Positions 1 through 61,244 of a stretch of 64,000 nt of DNA are shown piece by piece. The notes below the pieces were generated by a model. That model was given only the letters and a program-made list of their open reading frames with translations. It ran no database searches and had not been told where the DNA came from. A program made the translations under genes and the position numbers. Numbering within the stretch: position 1 is the first letter of the stretch; each line of letters starts with the position of its first letter. This stretch comes from Naegleria gruberi (lineage: Eukaryota), in the NCBI GenBank assembly GCA_000004985.1, contig GG738908.1, one strand, 5' to 3'.

Positions 1-1735
1 ACCATTACCATATAAAGTTAATAATGTCAAGGCTTGATTAAAATTAAAATTATTATTAATAGTTTTTAATGGTGTTATTTGATTTTTTAATATAGTTTTT
101 GAAATTAATTCTTTATAATTATTCAATTCAGTTTTAATATATTGTAATGATGTTAAATTATTTAATGCAATTCTTAAATTTACTACTTTTGGATATAATT
201 CTAATGATTTAGTATTTAAAACATTACATTGTGATGATACATCATTATAACATGTTGTTTTACCTTGATTATATGCTGCATTTACTAAATATTTATAATT
301 TTCTAATTTTAAATCATCAAAATCATTCAATGTTGTATTTAATTCTTGAAATGTATTACTTGCATTTAATAAATTCATATAATTATTAATATTATTATAA
401 TAATTTAAATAAGTTATATTCATATTAGTTAAATTAATTAAAGAATATTGATTTTTAAATTCTATAATAGGTAATACTTGTTTTAAATTATTTAAATTTA
501 TATTTGATAAATCTAATGTATTATTAAATAAAATAGAAATGGATGAAATAACTTGTTGATTAATATTTGAAATACTATTAATAGAATTATAATATTTTGT
601 AATATCACCATTTACAAAAGTATTTAAAAGAGATTTAGATGAAGAATAATAATCAAATAAATTAACATTTGGTAATTCAACAAAAGTATCATTAATATAT
701 TTAATATCTTTAATTAAATTATCAATACAATTAGTTTGTTGTAAAATTGAATTAAAAAATAAAACTTGTGAATAAATATCTTGAATAAATTGTAAAGATG
801 GAATTGAATTGATGGCAAATGTTAAACTTCTCAAATCATCTTTTAATAATTTATACTTGTTTGGTAATGTTTGATTAACATCTTGATTAAATAAATTTAA
901 ATTATTAAAAGTTAAATTTAAATTTGAAATTTGATTAAAAGATAATTGTAATTCATTTAATTTTAATTTTAATTCAAATTCTGATGGTAATTGTGATAAA
1001 GTATTATTCATATAAATTAAATTATTAATTAATGTTATAATTGGTAATTTAAATAAATTAATATTATTTTGTAATATAATAGTTTCATAATATAAATTTG
1101 ATAATTGTACAATATTACTTGTTTTAAAATGTGATAATTCATATTCATATTGATTAAAATATTTAAAATTTAATGTTGTATTCGTTTGATCTTGTAATGT
1201 TTGTATTGTATTTATAGAATAATCTATTGTTGTAATTTTATTTAAATTTAAATTAATTAAATCAATTAAATTAATTAAATTATTTAAAGAATTTGATAAT
1301 CCAATAATAGAATTTTCAAATATCAAAGTAGATGTTTTTAAATTATTAACATGATCATCACCAACTGTAATAAATAATTGTTTTAATTCAATAATTGAAT
1401 CTTGTAATGGTTTAATTCTATTTAAAATATTATTATTTAAATAATTATTTATATTATTAATATTTAATTCAATATTATTTATAGAAGGTACTTGTTCTGT
1501 TATAGAATAAACACATTGATTCCATTCTGATAATTTACTTGCTGTTGGTAATTTACTTAATAAACTTGTTTTAAATTGATTATATTGTGTTTCTAATTGT
1601 GTTACTATTGTTGGTAAATTTTTAGCAAATTCTAATACACTTGATACAAGTGTTTCAATTTCATTATAACTATTTATACCCTTATTTATAAAACTACTAA
1701 TTTCTATATTAGATTGATATGCAAACACAAACCAT
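1..1735 (-). CDS. Asn/Ile/Leu-rich low-complexity protein, function unknown. The 3' end runs off the window edge. Proposed structure: ATG at 1735..1733, a 52-nt intron (1681..1732) immediately after the start codon, then an open frame down to position 1.
   Basis: The minus-strand frame is open continuously from 1680 to 1 and reads MGINSYNEIETLVSSVLEFAKNLPTIV... The only in-frame way to reach an ATG is a GTTTGT...AAATAAG intron after the start codon. The donor is non-consensus, so the 5' structure is tentative. Confidence 0.45.
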
Positions 1736-1827
1736 ACTCTTTTTTAAATTATATATTTTAAATATATTATTATATTTTATAAATATTAATTTATATTGTT
1801 AATATATTATTATATTATTAATAATTA

Positions 1828-2484
1828 TTATATAATTAAAATTAAATTAATAAATATAACATACATTAATAAAGCAATATTTAAAATAACCCATATAAGT
1901 AAAATAATTCTAAAAGCACATATAATTCTCTTTCTCTTTTCATGATCTTTTGCCCATGCACCATAATTATCTAATCTAAATTTTTGATCTCTTTCACCAA
2001 GTTTACAACAACAACAAGAACCAATTGAATAAAACAATGCACCTAAAAAACAACAAAATTCAACAAGTAAAATTCCTAAACAAATTAAACCTAATGCACC
2101 ATATGCACCAATACCTTCAGCATAATCAACTAACATTGATATAGCTGTTTGATTAGAAATATCAAAATTTGTAATTACTTTAGGTGCTGAACGTGTATCT
2201 AATTTCCTTGTTCCATAATTGTATAATGTTAATCTAGGTAATACTGATACTAATTTTACAATATTCTTATCAATACCTGTTCCTAAATTAAATATTGCTG
2301 ATGATAAGGATTCAATACCTTTATTCATAATAGAATCTCTTAATGATGAATATTCATTACTAGTTGCAATTACACCTGTACTTTCTGTACTTTCTGTATA
2401 TTGTACGTTAAATGTTAATAATATTAATACTATTAACATTATGGAATATATTAATATATTATTATAGATTGATAACCTTTTCAT
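1828..2484 (-). CDS. small membrane protein (218 aa) with an N-terminal signal/anchor and a C-terminal cluster of transmembrane segments including a CCCC motif; function unknown
   Basis: Complete ORF with start and stop. Hydrophobic N-terminus (LIYSIMLIVLILLTF) and C-terminal hydrophobic segments (GALGLICLGILLVEFCCFLGALFYSIGSCCCC, IILLIWVILNIALLMYVIFINLILII). Confidence 0.4.
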   Translation of the reverse strand: MKRLSIYNNILIYSIMLIVLILLTFNVQYTESTESTGVIATSNEYSSLRDSIMNKGIESLSSAIFNLGTGIDKNIVKLVSVLPRLTLYNYGTRKLDTRSAPKVITNFDISNQTAISMLVDYAEGIGAYGALGLICLGILLVEFCCFLGALFYSIGSCCCCKLGERDQKFRLDNYGAWAKDHEKRKRIICAFRIILLIWVILNIALLMYVIFINLILII

Positions 2485-3987: not shown

Positions 3988-4180
3988 AGGTTTTAGTGTT
4001 AGACTTAGATTTTCGTTCAGAGAAATGAGTTTACATCTGATATTTAAATTTTTATCAATGATGTGTGAGTCAATTTTATATTTTCAATAATATTTTAGTG
4101 CTTCTGCAACAACAAAATAATTTTCAATTTAATTATTGATTTACTCGAAGAAAGAACAATAAAATTATCAAGTTAAAAAA

Positions 4181-7100
4181 ATGTTGAAAAAACTCACAAA
4201 TGTTCTCTCAGCTTCAACAACAACATCATCATCATCGGCTGCTGCTTCTTCTACCACTTCCATAGTAGCATCCATGAATTCCATGATGATGAAAAATAAT
4301 TTATTATTAACAAAGAATAATTTAATTCATCATCATCATCAATCGAAGGCTTCTTTTTCATCACTATTAAATGTGAGTCATTATGAATCATCATCACCTT
4401 CCGATAATATTAGTAGTAATATACAAACAACAACAACAACACAAAAGGCTCCAAGTAAAAATTGTACTACTAAAAAGTACATTGAAGATACTAAACCATC
4501 AAAGGCTTCTTCTACTAATATTAATGGTCATTCATCTACATCATCATCTACATCATCATCCTCTCAAAAGATAGTTATTAATACAAAATTAAATACTAGT
4601 GTTAAAAACTTTATTAGAAATTCATCATCCTCATCATCCGCATCCGCATCATCCTCATTAATTCAAAGTGAAAATGATAAAAAGATTAAAAAACAAAAAA
4701 GTACAGATTTAAAATCACTTTCATTAAAACTTCATGAACCTTTATTTGGAAGTGAAAGTGTTGAAAATATTTCTAAATTAACAGAATATTCAAATCAAGT
4801 AAAAGAAAGAATATTAAAATTATATCAAAATTATGAACCATATCAATATGTTGAATTAACAAGATATTTACTTTATTTAAATCAAGTACAATATATTCCT
4901 GATGTTATTACAATGGCTAATAAGAATAGAAATGTAATTTCACATTATTCATTTGCTAAAGAATTAGCTTATCAATTAGAAAGAAAAGGAAAACATATTC
5001 ATAGTCATTTAAATGAATATGAAGGTATTGATACTAAATTAATATTAAATCAATGTTCTAAATGTTTAGATTTAATGATTTCAAGTGGATATAAAGCTGT
5101 TAAAACTACAAATACTGATATTTTCATTGACATGTTATGTTATAGAATTAAAATGTTTCATCATTCAAATGATTTTAAAGGTAATTTTTAATTATTTTTA
5201 ATATATTTAATTTAATTATTTTTATTTAATTTTAATATTAATATAGGACTTAAAAAATTATTTGAAAATCAATTAAAACCATTAACATCAAGATTTTTAA
5301 CACATCCAGTAGTATTATGTAAATTATATAATGTATTAGGACATGTTTTAATTGAAATGAATGAATTAAATTATTTATATGAACAAGTTTATGCTAAAAA
5401 TATTAATAATCATTTTAATATAGTTAAATTAGTTAAAAAAGGAATATCAGGTACACCATTATTTGTAACAGTATCTGAATTACTTTCTAAATCTAATATT
5501 TTACATACAAATATAGCAAGTAAATTAAGTTTATTAGGAGTTGAATATTTAGAATTAGCTAAAAAAGAACAAGATGCAGAATTTTTAAAAAAATTAGGAG
5601 GAACAATATCAAAAACATATGGAGATTTATTTGATGTTGATAAAAATAATTTATTACCATTGGAAAATTACTTTTCATTCTATTTAAATTTTATTTCATA
5701 TTATTGGAATTTATATAGTGATGTATTAGATAGAAAATTACTTAAATATGTTTCTGTTAGATTTTTATATTTATATGCTCGATTAGTACATGATTCTGCA
5801 TATGATGTTAGTAGTTCAAGAGAAGCTGAATATGTTCATCAAGTTTTAATTGAAAATCAAATTCCATTAACAAATGATATTTATCATTGTTTACTTGTTA
5901 TTTATGCACATACTGGTAAACAAGATTTATGTGAAAATTTATTTAATACTATTATTAATAGTAGTAATGATAATATGAATGATATGAATGATAGTAATGA
6001 TATGAATAATATAAATTTAAATAATATCAATGATATGAATAATAATATGAATAATATGAATAATTCTAATAATTCTAATAATTCTAATAATAATTCTAAT
6101 AATATTTATGATAGTAAAAGAACAATTTATCAATCAATGGTAAATGCCTATTCAATTATGGGTAATTTTGAAAAGGCACTTTATTATGCAACACAAGTTA
6201 AAATGAATATTGAAGTATTGAATGCATTATTAAAATCAGTTGCAACATTATGTTTACCAAATATGAGAAATTTAAATGATGAAGATTATATATTATCATG
6301 TTTACAAAAAACAATACAATTATTTGCAGATCATTCAATTCAATATGATGGTATAACATTGAATACATTAATTAATATATATGGATTATTAGGTAAATTA
6401 CCATATATGATAAAACATTTTCAAATGTTAGTTGATAATATAAATTTTAAAGAATATGTTAATGCTATTACATTTACAACAGTAATTAGACATTTATGTA
6501 TGAATGATCATTTTGATTCAGCACTTGATATGTTTAATCGTATGAAAGAATTAAATATTAAACCAACACGTGTAACTTATAAAGTATTACTTGAAGGAAT
6601 GATATTAACAGGTAAAGATTGTTTACCAATGATTATGCAAAATATGAAATATGATAATATTAGTATGGATGATCATTTAGTTGGATCAATTGTTTTATAT
6701 TATGCTAGTAGAACTAGAAATGAACAACAATTAATGGATATATTAAGTGTTGTTGATAGACATAAAAGTGAATATACTCCAAAAGTTTATGAACATTTAG
6801 TTTTATTTTATTGTAAAATTAATAATTTTTCAAGAGCAAGATTTTTAATTTATGAAATGTTAGAACGTGGTGTTACTCCTACAATGAGAACATTTACACA
6901 TTTTATTACATTTTTACATACACATATGGATTCATTTGATTTATTACATATTTTATTACCTATTGAACAAGATATTGTAAATTATATTACACAAAGAAAG
7001 AAGGGTGAATTAAATAGTTTATCTAATACTATTTTTGATGGTAAAGATTTAGGTATTGGCCTAAGTTTATTACAAATAATGTTACAAAAAGTTGATTTTA

Positions 7101-7771
7101 CACAATTACAAACTAAAATTGAACATTTATCAAGAGATCATTATTTAAATAAGAATGTTTCTTATATTTTATCAGGTTTAATTAAAACAGATCCAAATGC
7201 AAATGTTAAAGATTTTATTGATAATTTAATTTATTTATTTGAATCATGTGGATGTTCTCCATTTGCATCTACAAATGCTCTATTTTTACATGTTATTAGT
7301 GAATTAAAAGGTCCATTTGAAATGAAACAATTTTATTTGGAAATGAAGAGAAATAATTTAATACTTGATATTAGATCATTTAATTTATATTTGGAAGCTT
7401 TATTAAATACTGAAGGTTCAAATTCAATGTGGAAATATTTTAATACTTGTCAAACAAGTACTGAAATTATTAAAATTAATCCAGATATTGATACTCTTCA
7501 TATTTTAATTAGATCTATTAGAGATTTTAATGATATGGAATTTATTTTATCTAAATATAGACAATTTATTGATAGTACTAGATATTTATCACCAAAACTT
7601 TCAAAACAAAAAACATCAAAGAATTCACCACAATTAAAAGAGGAAATTATTTCTTCAATTTTAGATGCAATTGAATCAAAGGAATCATTAATTAATAGTA
7701 ATCAAACTTTTGCAAGAATTGAACAAATGAAAGATTATTTACAAAAGGCTTTATTTTCATTCATTGAATAA
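4181..7771 (+). CDS. pentatricopeptide-repeat (PPR) protein, probably mitochondrial. Two exons, 4181..5180 and 5247..7771, with a 66-nt intron GTAATT...ATATAG. Ser-rich N-terminus and an internal poly-Asn tract.
   Basis: The two ORFs join in frame across a GT..AG intron (KG|GLKKLFENQ...MNELNYLY). There are repeated 35-aa helical PPR-like units (e.g. HCLLVIYAHTGKQDLCENLF, NTLINIYGLLGKLPYMIKHFQ, NAITFTTVIRHLCMNDHFDSALDMFNRMKELNIKPTRVTYKVLLEGM). Confidence 0.7.
5958..6108 (+). repeat. coding trinucleotide microsatellite (AAT/GAT/ATG units) encoding an N/D/M/S-rich low-complexity tract inside the PPR gene
   Basis: Imperfect trinucleotide repeats such as gatatgaat gatatgaat gatagtaat ... aattctaat aattctaat aattctaat. 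Confidence 0.6.
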
Positions 7772-7858
7772 ATAAGTGTTTATGTTTTTATTATTATTAT
7801 TATTATTTTTATTACAAATATTTGTAAATCATTCAATTGATAAGTTTTTTAAACCTCT

Positions 7859-9782
7859 TTATAAATAAGATATCAATAAAATAATTGCTGCAATCATCAA
7901 GGTAGTAGTCAATGAAAATTGAACTGATTGATTTGAATCATTAATCTTTGTACTATTGGCAGCTTTAGTTGATACAATTGGTGTTGTTCCATTATTAGTA
8001 CCATTATTTGATGAAGGATTTGAATCACATGGATAAGTATTTGGAATGACATATCCACTCGTTGTTAATTTGAGTGGTTTGAATCCATAAACATAATTTT
8101 CATAAACCAATTCAATAGACAAGGCAACATAACCTTTAGATGGATTAGGAACAAAAACTTCCCAAATATTTGGAGAAGTTTCAGATAGATTTGATGACTT
8201 GTAAGTTGATCCAATGGTTGAGATACGGAAATCTCTAGCATTAGTATTGTTTGCTCTCCATAGATAGACATTGGTTGGTTTGATGGCACTCCAAACAGTA
8301 ACCTTGACACCAGTGTCATTGTAGATGTGTGTGAAATTGTATTGAGGTAGATCAATTCCCTTAACTTGCATATAGTAGAATAATAAAACTGATTCTATTG
8401 CATCTGAATTGGAAAGTGAGTGTCCAGTATTTGGAATGTAACGTAAATATTTCTTTTTAATATTATTCATGTAAGGCCAACTCTTTAAAGCAAGATCTAT
8501 TCGATTAATCATGTAAACATATTAATTATATCAATTCATGAATATATAAAGTTATAACACACTTACCTGGCCACATAAATTCATCACCAAGAGCATTAAT
8601 CATATAAATTGAATGATTAGAAAATCTTTCTCTATATGCAAATGGATCTTCAACTGATTGTAAAGCAGTAAATGCAGCAGAATCAACTCTCTTCAAAACA
8701 CCTTGAGAATTGTAATCATATAAAGCAATTGGCCAAGCACAAAGTGATTTGTTAATTTGAAGAAAACTTTCTTTCAAATTCAAAACTTGAATACTCAAAG
8801 GAACGAGTGCTTTAACACGAGGATCAGCAGCTCCAACCAACCAAGCTAATTTATCACATTTTAATATAAATTGTAACAATTATTGTAAACTTACCAGCCC
8901 AACCTATTATTTTCAAAATTTCAATATTTCAATAAATTTAACACACATACCTCTTTTAGAACCTCCACCAATTGTAAACTTTGAAATTGAAACTCCATTC
9001 AATTTGTAAATAAAATCCTGAACAACATCCATAGCTCTCATTGAAGTTTTTGCCATTGGTAAATGACCCAACCATTCATAAGTTTTCACATCAATTGGTA
9101 AATTTGCTGATGATTTATTCTCATATCTATCCATGAATGCATTCCATGTGTAGGCAATGAGTGAATCTTCACTACGTGCTGTTTTACTTGGATCAGATGA
9201 AAATATAATTGGTTGATTGGGAACAATGTAAACTTGTGAAGTGATGGAATTAGTGGAATAGGCAAGTGATTTTAACATGTCATTGGTGGTTGGCATTGAT
9301 GTGGAAGAAGAACCTCCTTCAATATATAAAAATGATTCATTATAGTTGGTGTTGAGATTATTTGGAACCACAATGGCTAGATAATGTTTCCTTTTTAGTA
9401 GTATACATTATTATTGTAATAATATTCAATAGTATTATTATATTGTAAATAATGAAATAGGATAGAAATAACAAACATACCATTGTGATGAAGAACCCAA
9501 TTCTTCACTTGTTAACCAATCAACTCCTCTAATAGAGAGAGTATACATAACACCCACATCCAATGTAGTTGTTGCCAATAAAGTATAATTCATTGCAGGT
9601 GATGATAAATTTACATAGTCATCAATTATTGCTGCACTCACACACAAGGAAAATAGAGCAGCAACAATAAAGAATGCACCAATGATGAAGGTATATTTAA
9701 TGACCCGTTGGTTATTTGGTTCATGCATTTTTTTCTTTTTGTTAATAATCAACGAGGATGGCAATGAATTGAAAAAAGTCAA
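7859..9782 (-). CDS. PhoPQ-activated pathogenicity-related protein family member (AprA-like secreted/membrane-anchored protein). Exons 9782..9481, 9390..8951, a 9-nt microexon 8903..8895, 8845..8567 and 8496..7859. The start may instead be the ATG at 9728.
   Basis: All introns are GT..AG and 47-90 nt long (donors GTATGT/GTAAGT). Family motifs are ...FTIGGGSKRGWAAWLVGAADPRV... and ...GDEFMWPDLALKSWP... The N-terminal signal anchor is IIGAFFIVAALFSLCVSAA and the C-terminus is hydrophobic (GPI/TM-like). Confidence 0.7.
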
Positions 9783-27711: not shown

Positions 27712-30700
27712 ATGGAAACTCTAGATATTGAAAATGATATCATTCCAACTATCAAATCGAGAACAAAGAAAAGAGCTTCTAAATCTTCAATTCCTCTCCA
27801 AGACATTACTCAAAAAGTGTTGAACAAGGGAAATGTGATTGCTAAGCAATGCGATGAAGATTATTCGAAAGGTAAAAAGGCGTTAAAAAGGGAATCAGAT
27901 GATGAAGAAATTGCTTCTCCAATCCCAATCAAATCTAGAATGCCAACGAGAAAGCCTTTGAACAAGAATACTGTTGAGGCAAAGCAACCTAAGAGAAAGA
28001 TCTCCCTTCCTTTAATTTCTTCCTCGGATGAAGAAGATGATTTTGAAGAATTCAAACAAACTAAGAGAGTAATAAGGAGAACAACAAGACCTCCAAAGAA
28101 GGTGAAGTTTGAAGAAAGTAGTGGTTCAGAGTTTGAGGAAAGCAGCCCTCAAGTAGTGTTCGATATTAGCAGTGATGAAGATAGTGTTGAGATTTTCAAA
28201 TCTGAGAAGAAGGAAATTATAAAGAAGGAAGTGGTTTTATCTGAGAGTGAAGAAAGCAGTGCTGATGAAGAAGCAGAAGAACAAGATGAGGAACTAATGT
28301 TAGATGAAGAGGAGGACTTTACTTCATCCTCCTCTGAAGAAGATTCGGAAGATGATGATTATCAACCAAAGAAAAGCAAGCCTCAAAGGAAAGCTGCTTC
28401 CAAACCTGTTGCTCCCAAGCCAAGAAAGAATGAAAGGGTTCTCTCTGATGATGAAATGGGCTCTGAAGAGGAAACCAAAGAAAAGCCAAAGGTTACTCTC
28501 ACTATTAAGAAAAAGAAAACTCCTGGCGAATTGAGACAATCTGAGAATGGTTGGTGCTTTGATGTGAAGAATGATCATTACGTTCTCAAGATTGGTGATG
28601 ATACTTACGGTTTTGCTCTATCTGCTGATATATTCGAAAAGCTCTACTCTCACCAACAGATCGGAGTTAAATGGTTAGTTGAGAGACATTTTGCTTCATC
28701 TTTAAAAGGTGGTTTATTAGCAGATGATATGGGACTTGGTAAGACAATTCAAATTTCCTCATTCATTCATGGTTTGTTTCTAACTCAGAAAGCTTCAAGA
28801 GTATTGGTAATTTGTCCAAACTCAGTGGTAGGAAATTGGCAGGTAAGTTACTGTTTTTTTTAATGAAATGTAATTCCATAACAGAAAGAGTTAGAAAAGT
28901 GGGGAGGCGATCAGATTAAGGGTGTTGTTATTTTCCACCAAGTTGGCAAAGCATCTTCAACAAACAGAAAGAGACAAGGTTTTGTAAAGGAGTTTGAGAA
29001 GTATGCAAAACAGGGCGGTGCTGTCATGTTGTCCACCTATCAAACCATAGCAAACCATGTTGAATATCTATCAAAATCCTTTTCAGGTGACAAACTTTTG
29101 GATTCGATCATCATAGATGAAGCCCACAAAATTAAGAATAAGGATGCCAAATGCTCAATGGCTTTGAAAACTCTTGGATCTGCCTCAAAGTTTGGTCTTA
29201 CTGGCACTCCCATAATGAACAAGTTGGTAAGTCATTTTTCAAGTACAGTTACTAATCTGTTTTCCCATCCAATGTACAATAGACTGAATTGTATTCTATT
29301 TACTCTTGGTGTTTTGGAGAAGATTTGCTTGGATCGGTATCAGAGTTCAGTTCCAATTATTCCACACCAATTAATCAGAGCACAAGAAGGGATGCAAACT
29401 ATACTCAAAAAATGGCTGGAAACAGAGCAGCAGATGATTTGAGAGAATTGGTTAAGCCATACCTTTTGATGAGAGGGAAAAACGCAGTCCTTACCATAGA
29501 TAAGAATTTATACAAGTCATCAAGCAACACAAGTGCTAAAATAGGTCAAAAGAATGATCTGATTGTTTGGTGCAAGCTCACTGATGAACAACAACATTGG
29601 TATAAGGAATATCTATCATCTGATGACGTCAAACAAGTGCTTAATAAGACTATGAGTGCCCTTGTTGGTATAGTTATTTTGAAGCAAGTTTGTAATCATG
29701 CCATTATGTGTAGTGGTTATGACGAAATAATGAAGAAAAAGAAAAAAGAACTTGAAGAGGAGGCAAAAGAAGACTTTGGAGCAGACAGCAGCGATGAAGA
29801 TTTCATTGAGGAGAGTGAAGTAGCTCCTTCCATGTCCTTTGATATGGATGATTTAGATGATAAACAGAGAAAAGCAATGGAAAGAAGGCTTAAAAAGATT
29901 CAAGACGATTTGATTAAGGAAAGAATCAGAAATGAACCAATCGAACAATTGATATCTTCTTCCGTTAAAGCACAATTGGTAAAGCACCTTGTTGAGAAAT
30001 GCAACGAAGAAGGACATAGGGTATTGATATTTTCTCAATACACAAGAATGTTGGACATTATTGGACATGTTTTAAAAAGTATGAAGGTAAAATTCAATAG
30101 AATTGATGGAAGTGTTACAAGACACCAAGACAGAACCCAATTGGTGGACGAGTTCAATGAAAATGAGAAGATTAAGTGCTTTATTCTAAGCTCTCAGGTA
30201 TGTTTGGTTTAAATTTATGGAGCTAACAATAATTCGTACAGGCGGGAGGTGTTGGACTTAACCTTGTTTCAGCTTCAAGAGTTATTATTGTTGATGCAAA
30301 CTTTAATCCATCCATAGATGAACAATCAGTTGACCGATGTTACAGAATTGGTCAAAAAGAGAATGTGATTGTTTATAGATTGATTTCAGCAGGTACAATT
30401 GAGGAATATATTTACAAAAGGTAAGTTAAAATCAAATTACTAATTCTTACCACTACGACAGACAAGTAAGCAAGACAACCGTATCTAGAACAGCAACTAT
30501 TGCGTCAAATCAATACAGATATTTGTCTCATGCAGATCTAGAAGAAATGTTCACCCTTAAAAAAACAAGTCATAGTGAAACATGCTCCAGAATGAATAGA
30601 ATTCACTCCAAAGATAGAAGAGATTGTGATGGGCTTGAGGAGCATATTGAAAGTTTGAAGCAAATGGAAAACGTTGTTGGCATATCAGATCATGATGTAT

Positions 30701-31010: not shown

Positions 31011-31526
31011 ATGTCTCTAGACTCAGATAGTGATGATGACCGCCTTTTTGAAAAGGAATCCAAGTTATACAACTCTTCAACACTTTTAGATGAAATTAAA
31101 CAAAAGCATGGAGATGACATTCATAAAAAAGTGGAAACAATGATTGCTACTGCTACAAGCTCAACTGTAAAAGTATCAAGCCATTCCGATAGATTTTCAT
31201 CTTCATCTAATATTAAAGGAGAAGAAATTGAATATTCTCGTTATGATTGTGGGAAATATGATAGTGGAGCTGATTGCATGTACATTAATATTCGTCACAA
31301 ACTGAGTAATGGTTGGTCCTCACTATTTTCGTTTGAGGATGACTATGTTAAAAGAGAAAAAAGAGTTAAAATTGGACAGAATGTCAGAATATTGAGGGAG
31401 AAAATGAGATTTCATTCATTGGATGATAAAACATTTATGTCATGCCTGATAGTTGCAATGAATCTTGGACCAGGTGATAAAGAGAGACTTTTAAAATCTG
31501 TAAAGGAGGTAAATCATGATGAATAA
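31011..31526 (+). CDS. hypothetical acidic protein (171 aa); function unknown
   Basis: Complete ORF MSLDSDSDDDRLFEKESKLYNSS...MNLGPGDKERLLKSVKEVNHDE. Its last 70 nt plus about 40 nt of 3' flank are duplicated at 33174..33281. Confidence 0.45.
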   Translation: MSLDSDSDDDRLFEKESKLYNSSTLLDEIKQKHGDDIHKKVETMIATATSSTVKVSSHSDRFSSSSNIKGEEIEYSRYDCGKYDSGADCMYINIRHKLSNGWSSLFSFEDDYVKREKRVKIGQNVRILREKMRFHSLDDKTFMSCLIVAMNLGPGDKERLLKSVKEVNHDE

Positions 31527-31565
31527 TTTCATTATAAAATTTCCAAACACAAATTTATTGAGATA
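31458..31565 (+). repeat. direct repeat copy A (~108 bp, about 90% identical to 33174..33281), covering the 3' end of the CDS 31011..31526 and its 3' flank
   Basis: atgaatcttggaccaggtgataaagagagacttttaaaatctgtaaaggaggtaaatcatgatgaata...aaatttccaaacacaaatttattgagata aligns to 33174..33281 with a few substitutions and small indels. Confidence 0.8.
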
Positions 31566-31782
31566 TCAGAAAACAAACAATTAAAATAAACTAATAGATA
31601 AAGTGCTCATACTACAACCTCTACGTATTCAAGGCAGTTTTTAGGAGACGAGCACATCAATGTAAAAGAGTTAATTTTACTTCTTCTAGATCATTTCCAC
31701 AGCCTGACCTTTGTTTCCCACATTAAAATATTTTCAAAAAATAGTGTTAATTATTATTGATAGTTTATTATTTCGTACCCTA

Positions 31783-33028
31783 CTATGCTCTCCTATATTT
31801 AATGATATATTCAGGATAACATTGACATTTGTCATAAACAATAAATTCTCTATAAGAATGAATAGAAGTATTAGAATGTCCAATAACACTGTCATAAACT
31901 CTCTTATTTGTAAAACTAATTTCTGGGGGTCTTCTTATTAGTCATTCCGTTTGGAGTAAAATAAGTTTGTTTTCCCAACACAACTCTACATAACAAGATT
32001 GTGAATTCATTATTTGAGTCTGGTGTACAATATTGATCTGATTTTGAACAATATTCGGCAAAATAAATACCAGCTCCAAATAATCCACTCAAACTTGCAA
32101 CTCTTTCATCAGATCCATGCTCAGTAATTGCTTGAACGTATTCAGGTTTAGTTCCATGCCATAAATATTTTTCATTCATATCAGAATTCAATCCACTATT
32201 TTTCATCCATTCGAATGCTGTTGATGATTTTGGAATTTCTTCAGTTTTAACTTGAATATAGTTTGGAGGATCTTGATATGATTGTAAATGATTAACTCTT
32301 GCTGCAAAAGATGAAAATAAAGAATAATTTTCCACTCTATGAACACTTGAAACTATTAATTTAGAATAAAATGCTTTTTGAATCTGATCTCTACCTGATC
32401 CGAGTGTACGGGTGTTACATGTGGAATTCATAATTTCTTGTACAATATCTTTCAAATATTGTGAAACATCAATTACATAATATCTTGAAGTGAATGATAA
32501 GAAAGTATTATTCTTCCAATAACTTGGAAGTGAAACAATTAATTGTTGTGATTGGGTTGATGGTTGAAACACCTTCTCAATCAACCATTGAACACTTGAA
32601 TAATGTCCATTGACTTGAACAATGGATGAATAATTTGATTTCTCATCACTTTTAACACCCAAATATAATTGACTGTTGAGATTGATCAGAGAAACTGAAT
32701 TATGATCACATTTCTTGACAATCCATTGGTAATTTTTCCAAGCAGGATTATCCCATTGAATGATAGAAACTCCCTCATTCATATATCCATTGTCAGCACA
32801 AACATATTTACCGCTGGCTTCACATTTGATGAGAACAATTAGATCATTCTGGTTGTTTCCTGTATCACTACTTTTTATCAAGACAAATTGACTACGACTG
32901 ACACTTGGATTCTCCCATAATTGAAAATAGGCTCCATTATTTGAAAAATCACTAGAAATATTCAAATATTTCCCACTGTTAACATTTTTAATAGTAACAG
33001 GTGTGTTTAATAGTGCTTGAACATGCAT
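31783..33028 (-). CDS. ricin-B lectin (beta-trefoil) plus PARP-type ADP-ribosyltransferase catalytic domain protein. Intact ORF 31916..33028. The catalytic C-terminus, including the Glu motif, continues in the +2 frame down to a stop at 31783..31785 after a 1-nt frameshift at a G5/C5 homopolymer (31925..31929).
   Basis: N-terminal QxW repeats (FQLWENP, IIQWDNP, YQWIV, VQWLIEK). PARP signature YLWHGTKPEYVQAITEHG...GLFGAGIYFAEYCSKSDQYC...ILLCRVVLGK. The downstream frame encodes FTNKRVYDSVIGHSNTSIHSYREFIVYDKCQCYPEYIIKYRRA*, matching the tankyrase C-terminus HSVTG...[21 protein letters not shown]. Removing one C from the CCCCC run fuses the two frames. Confidence 0.7.
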
Positions 33029-33173
33029 GTTGAAGAGATCACTGTGAAATATTGGTGGAAGATTTTTTTAAGTTGACTCTTTTTGCTTTGGTGAATGCTT
33101 AGCAAAGAATGCAGATGTTTGGATGTGTAAATGACAACTCGTCATTGCATTCGCACAGCGTTGCCTAATACTG

Positions 33174-33281
33174 ATGAATCTTGGACCAGGTGATAAAGAG
33201 AGGCTTTTAAATCTGTAAAGGAGGTTAAATCATGATGAATAAAGCCATTGTAAAATTTCCAAACACAAATTTATTGAGATA
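33174..33281 (+). repeat. direct repeat copy B. It contains a frameshifted pseudo-copy of the last ~23 codons of gene 31011..31526 (LMNLGPGDKERLLNL*) and ends on the stop codon of the minus-strand gene 33271..34065.
   Basis: See copy A. The 1-bp deletion ttttaaaatctg to ttttaaatctg breaks the frame. Confidence 0.8.
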
Positions 33282-34065
33282 ATTCTCTCAACTTGGTCAT
33301 TGCCTTGGAAATAATAGATGGGAATCTTCCATACATTGAAGCATCATAAATAACTTGTTTGATTTCAGATATTACCTGACTTTGCTTGATTGCTTTCTCA
33401 AGAGACATTTCAATGACATGATCATATTGACTTGGATTTGAGTTTTTAATTCCAACTCCATTGGCGTTGGCAGCAACAGAAAGTGATAAAGCAGTCATAT
33501 CACTCAACTCCAAGGCCCTCAAATAGGCATTCTCAACAGTTTGGTATAAAATGTTTGGATTTCCATTCTTGGTGGACATGGCATCTGCTGTTGTGGCCAC
33601 TGCCATAGCCATGGAAGTTGAATCTGCCAAATAAATTGATTTTTCAAAAGATTTCAACACAACATATTGATAGAGGAGTGGATTTCCATCCTTGCTTCCA
33701 GTAGCATCAGCGTTGGTAGCCACAGCCAAACTCAATGGTGTAGAATCAGCCAATTTAATAGCGCTCAAATAGGCATAATTAATTGATTCCAAATATGAAT
33801 TTAAATTCATCACTTCCATTGCAGATGCATCAGCATGTGTGGCCACAGCCATAGCCAAACTACTTGTTGAACATAAATCAGCAGCCTTTCTATAATAATT
33901 ATTGGCATCTCTGACTTGTCCAGCAAGAACTGATTGATCTGCCAATCCCAACAAATAAACTGCTAAATTATCATTCGTCTCGGAATTGACATGAACCAAA
34001 CTTCCCAAACAAATAAATATCAAGATGAGAATAACCAATTTTCCAATCATCATCTTTACTGACAT
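33271..34065 (-). CDS. secreted protein (264 aa) with a signal peptide and four tandem ~45-aa repeats centred on (S/T)xxLAMAVATxADAxxxKxGNP; function unknown
   Basis: Signal IGKLVILILIFICLGSLVHVNS. Repeats: YYRKAADLCSTSSLAMAVATHADASAME...; YLSAIKLADSTPLSLAVATNADATGSKDGNPLLYQ; SIYLADSTSMAMAVATTADAMSTKNGNPNILYQ; YLRALELSDMTALSLSVAANANGVGIKNSNPSQYD. Confidence 0.6.
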   Translation of the reverse strand: MSVKMMIGKLVILILIFICLGSLVHVNSETNDNLAVYLLGLADQSVLAGQVRDANNYYRKAADLCSTSSLAMAVATHADASAMEVMNLNSYLESINYAYLSAIKLADSTPLSLAVATNADATGSKDGNPLLYQYVVLKSFEKSIYLADSTSMAMAVATTADAMSTKNGNPNILYQTVENAYLRALELSDMTALSLSVAANANGVGIKNSNPSQYDHVIEMSLEKAIKQSQVISEIKQVIYDASMYGRFPSIISKAMTKLRELSQ

Positions 34066-44400: not shown

Positions 44401-45830
44401 ATGCTTCACTTATTACACCCATATTATGGCTACTCGGAGGGGTGTAATCTCACATCTGCCGAATCATTAAGGCAAACAATGATGAAATTGGAATCGGATG
44501 ACAATGATCATGATATCGGAGTGAAATTAAACAAAGAATTGAGAAGAAGAAAGATCAACGTGACGAAGGTTGTTTGTGCTTTTGGACTAGTACTATTCCT
44601 TATTACAGGTAATTTTTCTTTCATACATAAACCGATGAAATTATGGAATTGCATAGATAATTCATCCGTCTATGCTTTAGGTCCAAATTCAATTCCTAGT
44701 GGTGCTAAATATGCTCCATCGGAATTTGTTGATAATGGTTATTTGAAAGAACCTTATCTAATTATTGATGGAAATGAAATTCCAGTTAGAGATATAATTT
44801 CCTCTTCATCTCATAATCTGTTTTTGACCTATAATAATGATATTTATGGATGTGGACATAATGGAAGAATGCAAATGTACACAAATTCAAAGAAATCATT
44901 TTCTGATTTGGAAGAAGTTACAAAATTATCAATTCCAAACGCTGGAAATCCAAAGTTTAAACTTGCTTCTTCAGGTAATTGTTGGAATTGTTTTTATATT
45001 AATTAATTATGAATATTGAAACAGGAACTGATTTTAGCATTTGTATTACAGATGATAACAAGATGTTTGCAAGTGGAGTTAATTATTCGGGACAATGTGG
45101 AATTGGCTCTTCAAAACCTCAATTCATGGCCATGATAGACTATGAGAGCCAGTTATTATCATTAGATCCAAATTCTAATTGTGAAATTATTGAAATACAT
45201 TCAAACGATAACTCTACAATCTTCAGAACTAGTGAAGGGAAATTGTATGGATTTGGAAACCATTCTTATGGATGTTTTGGTTTGGGGGAGGATATCGAAA
45301 GAGAAAATCATGAAATATGTCGGGTTGGTAGTGGATCAAAAGAATTTATGAAAGAAAAGTGTATTTCCTTCTCATGTGGAATGTTCTTTGTTTGTGCTAT
45401 CACCGAATCAAATCATTTATATGCATTTGGATATAATAATTGTCATCAATTATCAGCTAAGGATTTGCACACTGTTTATACACCTGTCAAGATTAACTTG
45501 ACTGATTGTCTTTCCAATAATGCCAGTAATATTCCAGGTTACAGTGGGTTAGTTTCATCAGTAGTATGTGGAGGTTATTCCACTTTTGCTCTTTCCATGG
45601 ACAATAAGATATACATAACAGGTTATTTCAAATCAGATGACATTATCAAAAGTTTTAAATGCTTGACAGAATTTGAATTGGAAAGCAAAACCCCAATTCA
45701 AATGAGTAACGGTGATTTTCACTCTGCAATTCTAGTCAAGTATGATTATATTTCACATTTATTCCCTAGACTATCAACATTGCTTCAAATAGCTTACCTA
45801 AGTGATGTTTGTTTTCATTTTGATTGTTGA
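44401..45830 (+). CDS. RCC1-repeat (regulator of chromosome condensation-like) protein with an N-terminal transmembrane anchor. Exons 44401..44974 and 45025..45830 with a 50-nt GTAATT..ACAG intron.
   Basis: TM segment KVVCAFGLVLFLITGNFSFI. RCC1 blades DIYGCGHNGRMQ, MFASGVNYSGQCGIGS, KLYGFGNHSYGCFGLGE, HLYAFGYNNCHQLS, KIYITGYF. The exons join in frame. Confidence 0.65.
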
Positions 45831-59686: not shown

Positions 59687-61244
59687 CTAGTTTTGCCACT
59701 CGAAGAAGGTTTCGAGAATATGTGTTGGTATTTTATCTCTTTCTGGTACCGAAAGTAAGATTGCAACTTTCTTGAGTTTAGTGCAAGAGTTGCAAATTTC
59801 CTCAACAAGATGGTGAGTACATTGATAGCCTTCAAATCGAATGGACTCCAGTTCTTTAAGATTAGCTATTTTCAGTGCACCAACATCTGTGAGCTCTGGA
59901 GAACCAAGTATTTCAAGCTCTTTGATGCGTGGAAGCTCACAAATGAACGAAACATTTGAGTCTGTAACTTCAGCAATTTGAAGTCGTTCCAATTTTCGAA
60001 GAGGTGAAATGAATGGTATTGAATCTTTCGCACTCCAATTACACGAAAGATTTTTGAGATTGGTAAATGATCCTATTGTTTGAAACATTGAAAGATCCGT
60101 TTCTATTTGAACCAATTGTAATTCGGTCAAATTTGGCAATTTGTTGAAAAGCTCCTTAAATTCCCAGCTTGATATGTCCTCATTTTCAAATGCTAATGAT
60201 GTCAAATTATTGCACTTCGAGAGAGATTTGAAGAACTCTAAATTTTCGACTTCTTTTTGGTGATTCCAAATGTAGTCATTAAAACATGTTTTAAAGGTCT
60301 TGAGTTCTTTCCAATTGTTAATATTCGAGATATATTTCACAGATATGCTTCCTTCTATGTACAGTTTTTCCAATTGAGGAGTGTTCTCTACAAATTCTTT
60401 CGTGATAATTGGAACATCTCCTACATAAAATACTTCCTTAATTTTCTTATTTGTTTTTGCTAACATTTTTCCAATATTTTCAGAGTTGAAAGGAAGTTCA
60501 ACTTGCATATTTAACAGGATAGGCAGGATATGATCCAATTCGAAGAATTTCCACATTGTTAAAAATGTCAAACACTTTCTCTAAAACTACACTTGCACTT
60601 TTAACTCCAATTATATCCAATCTCTTAAAAACTCCACACAAATCAGAATGGTATCGTTTGAGTTTTGACAGTCTCCTCAATGCTTCCTTTTGAGATTGAA
60701 CATCTGCTTTACATTCACACAACTTGTTGACTAATCTTGTTTCCAACATTTCATTATTAGTAATAAACTGATGTCTCAATAGGAGCAGCAACTCTGAATG
60801 ACAATATAACGACAATACTTTTGCATCCACAATTCCATATCTAAATAAGAATTTGACTTGAGTATCTACCTTAAATCTTCCATACCAAGTTCTCATAAAC
60901 GTTTTCAAATTGAAAATTCCTCTCTCTGATGTTGCACTCGACATGAAATCTCCTCCCAAAAAATCGAAAATATATAAAACAATATCAGAAGGAATAAAGG
61001 ATGTTTTGAAAATTTCAAACACTCCCATTGTAGAACTCTTTTTAACGACCGATGCCTTCCTCGTATCACCAACAATCTTTGAGACTCGTGGCTTTGTCTC
61101 TTCCCTCTTGGTGTATGTTATCTTACTTGAAACTAATTCATTCTTTTTCAAAGCTGTGCCTGCGACTTTCTTTTTCTGATCGACCACAAGGCCTTTCCTT
61201 TGATTTTTACCTTCATCAACTTTACTTATCGTTGATTTCTTCAT
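59687..61244 (-). CDS. F-box-like/LRR-repeat protein encoded as two overlapping ORFs, an F-box part 61244..60498 and an LRR part 60571..59687. The frames differ by one nucleotide at an A5/T5 homopolymer (60566..60570). Either a frameshifted single gene or a sequencing error.
   Basis: F-box-like IPSDIVLYIFDFLGG in the upstream ORF; LRR units (LTSLAFENEDISSWEFKELFNKLPNLTELQL, LKELESIRFEGYQCTHHLVEEICNSCTKLKK) in the downstream ORF. Deleting one T from the TTTTT run gives a continuous ...LEKVFDILTMWKFFELDHILPILLNMQVELPF... There is no intron-sized GT..AG in the overlap. Confidence 0.55.

What the first reader, a model, noticed from the sequence alone, without database searches (positions are those of the whole stretch)
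31783..33028. Ricin-B lectin-PARP catalytic domain gene whose catalytic Glu region is displaced by a 1-nt frameshift at a G5 homopolymer
The ORF 31916..33028 encodes a beta-trefoil lectin (QxW repeats) fused to a PARP-type ART domain (LWHGT...GIYFA...ILLCRVVLGK), but it stops 17 codons after the VLGK motif. The +2 frame immediately downstream encodes the missing C-terminus, ...YDSVIGHSNTSIHSYREFIVYDKCQCYPEYIIKYRRA*. This matches the tankyrase/PARP HSVxG ... (N/A)E(Y/F)(I/V)VY ... YPEYLI block, including the catalytic glutamate. The frames join if the CCCCC run (plus-strand ggggg 31925..31929) is CCCC, and the 14-nt GT..AG candidate is far below this genome's 41-nt minimum intron. So this is either a sequencing or assembly homopolymer error in a functional lectin-targeted ADP-ribosyltransferase, or a very recent pseudogenisation. 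A lectin-ART architecture resembles secreted or defence toxins such as pierisin, though the class here is PARP-like H-Y-E.
Basis: seen in the sequence. Interest (0 to 1): 0.65.

Follow-up and report, generated by a model that had tools for sequence, protein, structure and literature searches.

The report
Frameshifted lectin-PARP gene in Naegleria
This is a Naegleria gruberi gene that fuses a sugar-binding (ricin-B) domain to a PARP-type ADP-ribosyltransferase. In this reference sequence it is broken by a 2-base deletion, not by the homopolymer error first suspected, while an intact, 99%-identical copy exists in an environmental sample; so it is an ordinary null allele or assembly flaw in an unusual but uncharacterised gene.

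Summary
The window is Naegleria gruberi. The minus-strand ORF 33028..31916 is the annotated 370-aa protein NAEGRDRAFT_73830. It has a RicinB_lectin_2 domain plus a PARP catalytic domain that stops at Pfam profile position 129 of 199.

The proposed lesion is wrong. An independent ENA metagenome contig (L001) is about 99% identical over 2.2 kb and encodes an uninterrupted 415-aa protein (P0033). The only coding indel is a 2-nt 'GA' that the window lacks between 31937 and 31936 (AAT[GA]AAGAAGA). The C5 run (31925..31929) is identical in both copies and encodes the conserved Pro-Pro of an RRPP motif shared by the family.

The window copy also has Ser at a mostly Phe position (GFDER motif). Between the two copies pN/pS is about 0.15, and the out-of-frame tail is 100% identical in protein.

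The most likely reading is a very recent, real loss-of-function allele in the sequenced strain (about 0.65). A reference assembly error is the main rival (about 0.3). Programmed frameshifting is not supported. The lectin-PARP architecture has no detected relatives elsewhere and no description in the papers searched. Its function is only inferred.

The parts
31783..33028 (-). Whole lectin-PARP gene as it would read if intact: 415 codons plus stop in the intact allele. The window copy is 2 nt short.
   Evidence: tblastn of the intact protein P0033 against the window gives aa 1-368 at 33028..31925 (frame -1, 98.4% identity) and aa 366-415 at 31935..31786 (frame -2, 100% identity). The DNA alignment to L001 supports this.
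31916..33028 (-). Frame-0 ORF as it stands: 370 aa with a TAG stop at 31918..31916. This is the annotated protein NAEGRDRAFT_73830 / XP_002671123 / UniProt D2VXQ3.
32558..33007 (-). N-terminal ricin-B-type lectin region, about residues 8-157. QxW-like motifs are QLW, IQW/YQW and VQW. The N-terminus MHVQALLNTPVTIKNV has no hydrophobic signal-like stretch.
   Evidence: Pfam PF14200 scores 50.3 bits against a cutoff of 25.6, in 3 stretches. There is a weak match to the designed ricin-type trefoil ThreeFoil, 3pg0, E=1.4e-4. The AF2 model is unreliable here, with pLDDT below 50.
31937..32536 (-). In-frame part of the PARP/ARTD catalytic domain, about residues 165-364. It contains His291 (32158..32156, in LWHGT) and Tyr322 (32065..32063, in GIYFA).
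   Evidence: Pfam PF00644. In the family alignment H291 is present in 29 of 30 sequences and Y322 in 30 of 30. The model has pLDDT of about 90 or more, and Foldseek matches tankyrase catalytic domains.
31936..31937 (-). Site of the lesion. Two bases (GA, from codon Glu365 GAA) are missing between these two positions relative to the intact copy: window AAT|AAGAAGA, L001 AATGAAAGAAGA.
   Evidence: Junction scoring against the paralogues peaks at 31936 and is lower at the C-run.
31925..31929 (-). It is intact, identical in L001, and encodes Pro368-Pro369 of the conserved RRPP motif in the shifted frame.
31783..31935 (-). Out-of-frame C-terminal 50 codons plus stop (RRPPEISFTNKRVYDSVIGHSNTSIHSYREFIVYDKCQCYPEYIIKYRRA*). 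It contains the invariant Ser381 and the catalytic Glu395 (31848..31846), and three predicted beta-strands (381-385, 394-398, 404-414).
   Evidence: E395 and S381 are invariant in 30 of 30 sequences.
32111..32113 (-). Codon 306. The window has TCT (Ser). L001 has TTT (Phe), as do 21 of the 30 family members. This is the G-F-D-E-R motif, also found in tankyrase. It is a second, probably damaging, derived change in the window copy.

Best explanation
The locus is a Naegleria gruberi gene for a 415-aa protein without a signal peptide, so probably cytosolic. It has an N-terminal ricin-B-type beta-trefoil lectin module and a C-terminal PARP-family (ARTD) catalytic domain with a complete H-Y-E triad (His291, Tyr322, Glu395).

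In the sequence of this window the gene carries a 2-bp deletion (GA) inside codon Glu365, between window 31937 and 31936. Translation therefore runs out of frame for six codons and stops at 31918..31916. The 370-aa product lacks the last three core beta-strands of the ART fold and the catalytic glutamate, so it should be catalytically dead and probably misfolded.

An intact copy of the same gene exists in nature at about 99% nucleotide identity. The most likely reading is that the deletion is real. It would be a very recent loss-of-function allele: a nascent pseudogene, or one null haplotype, in the sequenced laboratory strain.

What is shown: the architecture, the position and size of the lesion, the existence of the intact allele, and purifying selection on the gene until recently.

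What is inferred: that the deletion is in the organism and not only in the assembly; and that the intact protein acts by lectin-guided ADP-ribosylation, with the trefoil binding a glycan and bringing the ART domain to its target.
For: - Identity of the gene: (100% match to NAEGRDRAFT_73830).
- Domains: Pfam; the tankyrase and PARP12/14/15 catalytic domains are the closest solved sequences, with the Glu aligned; a confident ART-fold model, with Foldseek TM 0.73-0.81 to tankyrase catalytic domains.
- Lesion: P0033, 415 aa, on ENA contig L001; 23 mismatches in about 2.2 kb, with a 2-nt GA as the only coding indel; the best junction score is at 31936 and a lower score at the C-run; RRPP is conserved, so the C-run must be read in the shifted frame.
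- The intact state is ancestral: the paralogue P0002 reads MTNERRPPEI, the same as P0033.
- The gene was functional until recently: 5 synonymous against 3 non-synonymous differences, pN/pS about 0.15. Coding divergence is 0.64%, against 1.5% in the flanks. The out-of-frame tail is 100% identical in protein to the intact allele, and its one substitution is synonymous.
- Real mutation favoured over error: the indel is 2 nt and not in a homopolymer. The same copy carries a second derived, non-conservative change, F306S, at a mostly Phe position. Natural indels between the two haplotypes are frequent, with 3 in about 1 kb of flank. A second suspicious ORF pair in the window turned out to be a normal 50-nt intron and not a frameshift. 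Naegleria is described as mainly a heterozygous diploid, so a null allele can persist (PMC9928731).
Against: - No reads of the sequenced strain could be examined, so an assembly or consensus error cannot be excluded.
- The perfect preservation of the downstream frame is expected just as much under an error.
- F306 is not invariant: 1 of the 30 homologues also has Ser. The polarity of the other two amino-acid differences could not be determined.
- There is no expression evidence for either form. The exact 370-aa product is not on record in the assembly collection.
- The lectin fold is supported only by the profile match. The structure model is unreliable for residues 1-110.
- My recollection that the reference was Sanger-sequenced at about 8x comes from memory. 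I could not verify it here, because the genome paper is not held.
Confidence: 0.65

Rival explanations
1. The gene is intact in the organism, and the missing GA is a consensus or assembly error of the reference scaffold.
For: - The downstream 50 codons are 100% identical in protein to the intact allele, with no stop codons.
- Overall pN/pS is about 0.15.
- The reference is a draft assembly, and no reads were available to check it.
Against: - The indel is 2 nt and sits outside any homopolymer. That is not the typical error mode of either Sanger or short-read consensus.
- The same copy has an additional non-conservative change in the GFDER motif.
- Real indel polymorphism between the two copies is common.
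- The one other frame-discordant ORF pair that was resolved in the window is an intron and not an error.
Confidence: 0.3
2. The frame change is read through by the cell. This could be programmed +1 ribosomal frameshifting, for example at the AAT-TAG-T stop as in Euplotes, or transcript editing, so that the full-length enzyme is made from this sequence.
For: A +1 shift anywhere in 31941..31916 arithmetically restores the C-terminus. The frame-0 stop context is AAT TAG T.
Against: - The 99%-identical allele and all homologues encode the protein in a single frame, so the shift site is not conserved.
- A shift at the stop codon would replace the conserved RRPP with KKTPRN.
- No known shift motif or stimulatory element was identified.
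- I know of no report of programmed frameshifting in Naegleria (from memory).
Confidence: 0.03
3. This is the first reader's version: a 1-nt insertion error or mutation in the C5 (G5) homopolymer at 31925..31929.
For: Removing one C does join the frames and gives a 414-aa protein with a full PARP match.
Against: - L001 has the same CCCCC.
- The run encodes the conserved Pro-Pro in the shifted frame.
- The junction score against the paralogues is lower at the run than at 31936: 931 against 945 for P0002.
- The real difference is the GA indel seven bases upstream.
Confidence: 0.02

Closest known systems
N. gruberi paralogue XP_002672366 (P0002, 'TCCD-inducible-PARP-like') and the protist clade around it (N. 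fowleri kinase-PARP P0004; metagenomic ankyrin-, kinase- and PDZ-PARPs P0005, P0010, P0014). Possibly the same group as the 'unplaced' short H-Y-E Naegleria PARPs 72525 and 80603 of Citarelli et al. 2010 (PMC2964712).
   Same: - 53-66% identity over the whole catalytic region.
- The same extended N-terminal subdomain (LPxYW...TC..TLG.GRDQ...RIEN).
- The same RRPP and YPE(Y/F) motifs.
- An H-Y-E triad, and the catalytic domain at the very C-terminus.
   Different: None of them carries a lectin domain. The N-terminal module is a kinase, ankyrin repeats, PDZ or nothing. All of them are in a single reading frame. I did not check whether P0002 is one of the two gene models named in the paper.
Tankyrase 1/2 (PARP5a/b) catalytic domain; also PARP12, PARP14 and PARP15
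   Same: These are the closest solved structures by sequence (E=2e-14) and by fold (Foldseek E about 6e-15, TM 0.73-0.81). They share the motifs HG(S/T), GFDER, G(I/T)YFA and (A/R)E(Y/F)(V/I)(I/V)Y ... YPEYLI.
   Different: There are no ankyrin repeat clusters and no SAM domain, and identity is only about 26%. Poly- versus mono-ART activity cannot be inferred. This protein is not a tankyrase orthologue.
Pierisin / mosquitocidal toxin MTX (ADP-ribosyltransferase plus ricin-B lectin repeats). Comparison from general knowledge.
   Same: The concept is the same: an ART enzyme fused to ricin-type beta-trefoil lectin modules that target it to glycans.
   Different: Those toxins have R-S-E (cholera-toxin-like, ARTC) catalytic domains at the N-terminus with several C-terminal lectin repeats, and they are secreted or activated by proteolysis. 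Here the ART is H-Y-E (diphtheria-toxin/PARP-like), the single lectin module is N-terminal, and no signal peptide is visible.
Cytoplasmic fungal chimerolectins such as Marasmius oreades agglutinin (ricin-B trefoil plus an enzymatic effector domain). Comparison from general knowledge.
   Same: A leaderless protein with an N-terminal ricin-B lectin and a C-terminal enzyme. It is a plausible functional analogy, in defence against grazers or in recognition of foreign glycans.
   Different: The effector there is a cysteine protease and not an ART. There is no homology beyond the trefoil. The analogy is untested here.

Membership tests
PARP / ARTD catalytic domain (Pfam PF00644) | Profile match above the curated gathering score | tested here: met
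   70 bits for the ORF as it stands and 88.4 bits when the frames are joined, against a cutoff of 26.7.
PARP / ARTD catalytic domain (Pfam PF00644) | H-Y-E catalytic triad present in one polypeptide | tested here: not met
   For the window sequence as written, His291 and Tyr322 are in frame 0 but Glu395 is out of frame downstream of the stop. In the intact allele P0033 all three are present and align with invariant columns.
PARP / ARTD catalytic domain (Pfam PF00644) | ART fold superimposable on solved PARP catalytic domains | tested here: met
   This was tested on the AF2 model of the intact protein. pLDDT is about 90 or more over residues 180-415. Foldseek against the PDB gives tankyrase 1/2 and PARP12 on top, with E down to 6e-15 and TMt 0.73-0.81.
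PARP / ARTD catalytic domain (Pfam PF00644) | NAD+-dependent ADP-ribosyl transfer | not testable with these tools
   This needs a biochemical assay.
Ricin-B-type beta-trefoil lectin (Pfam PF14200 / PF00652) | Profile match above the gathering score | tested here: met
   PF14200 scores 50.3 bits against a cutoff of 25.6, in three matched stretches.
Ricin-B-type beta-trefoil lectin (Pfam PF14200 / PF00652) | Three-lobed beta-trefoil fold | tested here: inconclusive
   The AF2 model has pLDDT below 50 for residues 1-110, because the alignment has no depth there. There is only a weak sequence match to ThreeFoil 3pg0, E=1.4e-4. QxW-like motifs are visible in the sequence.
Ricin-B-type beta-trefoil lectin (Pfam PF14200 / PF00652) | Carbohydrate binding | not testable with these tools
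   This needs a glycan array or haemagglutination assay.
Tankyrase (PARP5) | Ankyrin repeat clusters and a SAM domain N-terminal to the catalytic domain | tested here: not met
   Pfam finds only RicinB_lectin_2 and PARP.
Pierisin/MTX-type lectin-ART toxins | R-S-E (ARTC) catalytic motif, N-terminal ART with C-terminal ricin repeats, and a secretion or activation signal | tested here: not met
   The catalytic domain is H-Y-E PARP-type. The lectin is N-terminal, and the N-terminus MHVQALLNTPVTIKNV has no hydrophobic leader.
Programmed ribosomal frameshift gene | Frame change conserved in orthologues or alleles at a defined slippery site | tested here: not met
   The 99%-identical allele L001/P0033 and all homologues are in a single frame.
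Unitary pseudogene / null allele | A disabling lesion relative to an intact ancestral state, present in the organism's DNA | tested here: inconclusive
   The lesion and the intact ancestral state are shown. Whether the lesion is in the organism or only in the assembly could not be tested, because no reads were available.

The most novel reading that the evidence does not exclude
The intact gene (P0033) encodes a leaderless 'chimerolectin' that couples a glycan-binding beta-trefoil to an active H-Y-E PARP-type ADP-ribosyltransferase. This would be a eukaryotic, ARTD-class counterpart of the lectin-ART toxins, used by a bacterivorous amoeba to mark or attack glycan-bearing targets such as prey, parasites or damaged phagosomes. 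Its loss in the axenically grown laboratory strain would then reflect relaxed selection once bacterial prey were removed. No relative with this architecture was detected among the roughly 5.8 billion clustered proteins searched, and none in JGI metagenome contigs.
Probability: 0.12. Interest if true: 0.6.

Novelty: new member of a known kind. Interest (0 to 1): 0.27.

Why it matters
In practical terms, the public model NAEGRDRAFT_73830 (UniProt D2VXQ3) describes a truncated protein that lacks the catalytic glutamate. Anyone who catalogues protist PARPs from this reference will miss or misclassify the gene. The 2010 PARP survey I read does not list it. The correct full-length sequence is available as P0033.

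In biological terms, the gene adds a lectin to the set of N-terminal targeting modules (kinase, ankyrin, PDZ) attached to a protist-specific H-Y-E PARP clade. It would be a tractable candidate for glycan-directed ADP-ribosylation. The frameshift itself is an ordinary event.

Tried and rejected
- **Homopolymer repair (C5 to C4).** It works arithmetically. I rejected it because the run is identical in the intact allele and encodes the conserved Pro-Pro.
- **Intron rescue.** The two frames abut with no residues missing, and the intact allele has no intron there. A real intron in this window is 50 nt with GTAAT..ACAG. Rejected.
- **Programmed +1 frameshift at AAT-TAG.** Rejected because the shift is not conserved.
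- **Search for more alleles.** An exact-pattern scan of JGI metagenome contigs across the junction, allowing 0-2 extra bases, gave 0 hits. A protein-guided scan of the same collection gave 0 confirmed loci. A look-up of the exact 370-aa product in the assembly collection found nothing on record.
- **Provenance of the intact contig.** Nothing was found for project PRJEB11402 in the papers, so the source of the metagenome is unknown.
- **NEG-M genome paper.** It is not held, so the sequencing method and heterozygosity figures could not be cited from source.
- **Extra copies in the window.** tblastn found only this locus, apart from a chance hit at 5494..5664 with E=0.33.
- **Literature on lectin-PARP fusions.** None was found.
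- **Structure of the lectin half.** The model was too uncertain to use.

Full report
**What is in the sequence**

On the minus strand, an ATG at 33028 opens a 370-codon ORF that ends at a TAG at 31918..31916. Pfam finds a RicinB_lectin_2 domain (50.3 bits, cutoff 25.6, three stretches) and a PARP catalytic domain (70 bits). The PARP match stops at profile position 129 of 199.

The +1 frame is open from 31941 and reads LIRRPPEISFTNKRVYDSVIGHSNTSIHSYREFIVYDKCQCYPEYIIKYRRA* down to a TAG at 31785..31783. Joining the two frames extends the PARP match to positions 11-198 of 199 and raises it to 88.4 bits. The joined sequence aligns with tankyrase through HSVIG...AEYVIY...YPEYLI, which places the catalytic glutamate in the shifted frame.

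A GGGGG run lies at 31925..31929 on the plus strand. A 50-codon open frame has a chance probability of about 0.03 at this composition, and the homology settles the matter.

**Whose gene it is**

The 370-aa product is 100% identical to Naegleria gruberi NAEGRDRAFT_73830 (XP_002671123, UniProt D2VXQ3), on a 259-kb scaffold. The window has 31% GC and is densely coding. Its neighbours are ordinary eukaryotic genes: an SNF2 helicase, a PPR protein, an FF-domain protein, and an RCC1 gene with a 50-nt intron.

**Where the frame really breaks**

The homologues recovered all read ...MTN-E-RRPPEI......RRPPQI... or ...RRPP.. just before the (Y/F/H)DS(V/L)(I/V/L)G block. They include an N. gruberi paralogue (P0002, 65% identity), a JGI sequence (P0003), and an N. 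fowleri kinase-PARP (P0004).

In the window, RRPPEI is encoded by A-AGA-AGA-CCC-CCA-GAA-ATT. So the C5 run is already in the shifted frame and specifies the two conserved prolines. I scored every possible single-base junction against the three closest homologues. The maximum falls at 31936 (945 for P0002), against 931 for a junction in the C-run.

The decisive evidence came from the 90%-identity cluster of the annotated protein. It holds a second member, P0033, of 415 aa. P0033 is encoded on a 2,228-nt contig from an ENA metagenome assembly (ERZ929261, run ERR1078381, project PRJEB11402; locus L001). L001 aligns to window 33448..31247 with 23 mismatches and four indel events. It includes the ends of both flanking genes, so it is the same locus in a different haplotype or strain.

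The only indel inside the coding sequence is GA. It is present in L001 at positions 1537-1538 and absent from the window between 31937 and 31936. L001 reads AAT GAA AGA AGA CCC CCA, and the window reads AAT AAG AAG ACC CCC A. CCCCC is the same in both copies.

P0033 reads through as ...GMTNERRPPEISFTNKRVYDSVIG...YPEYIIKYRRA. At the junction it has the same MTNERRPPEI as the paralogue P0002, so the intact state is ancestral and the window carries a deletion.

**State of the two copies**

With GA restored, the window and L001 differ by 5 synonymous and 3 non-synonymous substitutions: H109N, S157P and S306F. This gives pN/pS of about 0.15. Coding divergence is 0.64%, against 1.5% in the flanks. 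The gene has therefore been under purifying selection for most of the time since the two copies diverged.

The only substitution downstream of the break is synonymous in the shifted frame. The 50-residue tail is 100% identical in protein.

At codon 306 the window has Ser where L001 has Phe. Tankyrase (GFDER) and 21 of the 30 family members also have Phe, and most of the rest have Leu, Met or Val. This is a second, derived and probably harmful change in the same copy.

**What the truncation removes**

An AlphaFold2 model of the intact protein was built with a 30-sequence alignment. It is confident over the catalytic half, with pLDDT mostly 90-98 for residues 180-415. It places three beta-strands after the break, at 381-385, 394-398 and 404-414. 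Ser381 and Glu395 are invariant in all 30 sequences.

Foldseek against the PDB returns tankyrase 1 and 2 and PARP12 catalytic domains, with E down to 6e-15 and TM 0.73-0.81 on the target. A product that stops at residue 370 would lack part of the core sheet and the catalytic glutamate. It should be inactive.

The lectin half is poorly modelled, with pLDDT below 50 for residues 1-110. Its assignment therefore rests on the Pfam match and a weak match to a designed ricin-type trefoil.

**Real deletion or reference error?**

I could not examine reads, so this remains open.

For a real deletion:
- The indel is two bases long and not in a homopolymer.
- It travels with a second damaging change.
- Natural indels between these two haplotypes are common, with three in about 1 kb of flank.
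- The other suspicious ORF pair that I resolved in the window is a normal intron.
- Naegleria is described as mainly a heterozygous diploid (PMC9928731), so a null allele could be carried without cost.

For an error: the untouched downstream frame fits an error just as well.

I put a real, very recent null allele at about 0.65 and an assembly error at about 0.3. Programmed frameshifting or editing gets a few per cent at most, because the near-identical allele and every homologue are encoded in one frame.

**What the intact protein probably does**

It has no hydrophobic N-terminal leader, and only about 240 bp separate it from the upstream gene. It is therefore probably cytosolic.

It belongs to a protist clade of H-Y-E PARP-like enzymes. 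Their catalytic domain sits at the extreme C-terminus, and their N-terminal module varies: kinase in N. fowleri, and ankyrin, kinase or PDZ in metagenomic relatives. Citarelli et al. 2010 (PMC2964712) described two short Naegleria H-Y-E PARPs that fell in no defined clade. They did not list this gene.

By inference, the trefoil binds a glycan and brings the ART domain to a target. Whether the enzyme is a mono- or a poly-transferase cannot be told from the sequence.

Lectin-ART toxins such as pierisin and MTX are a functional analogy only. Their catalytic class (R-S-E), domain order and secretion all differ.

No other protein combining PF00644 with a ricin-type domain appeared among the relatives found. 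None appeared in JGI metagenome contigs or in the papers searched.

**Verdict**

It is a 2-bp deletion in codon 365, not a 1-nt slip in the G5 run. The event itself is ordinary: a null allele or a reference error in a draft protist genome. The gene is a new member of the PARP family with an undescribed lectin module and is of modest interest. The useful outcomes are the corrected full-length sequence (P0033) and a simple read-level test that would decide between mutation and error.

Noticed in passing
window 1-2000 and 4001-8000: These stretches are far more AT-rich than the rest of the window: 15.8% GC and 21-22% GC, against about 32%. The 804-aa ORF at 5357-7771 (+) inside the second stretch is a PPR-repeat protein.
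   Followed up: partly
window 33176 (5' intergenic region of the lectin-PARP gene); L001 274-297: There is a 24-nt indel between the window and the intact allele, about 150 bp upstream of the start codon. 1-nt indels at 31755 and 31713 lie in the 3' flank. These could affect expression but were not analysed.
   Followed up: no
window 33271-34065 (-): The upstream neighbour encodes a 264-aa protein with a hydrophobic N-terminus and about four internal repeats of the form 'LADST..S.AVAT.ADA...NP'. It has no Pfam match.
   Followed up: no
window 44975-45024 (+): A canonical 50-nt intron (GTAAT...ACAG) joins ORFs 44401-45006 and 45009-45830 into one RCC1-repeat gene. It is a useful reference for what introns look like in this genome.
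   Followed up: yes
window 59687-61244 (-): ORFs 60498-61244 and 59687-60571 overlap by 74 nt in different frames, and the downstream one carries leucine-rich repeats. Whether an intron or another frameshift joins them was not resolved.
   Followed up: partly
window 27712-30212 (+): A SNF2-family helicase is split over at least two ORFs: the start of the SNF2 N-domain in 27712-28863, and its end plus Helicase_C in 29289-30212. Presumably it is interrupted by introns.
   Followed up: no
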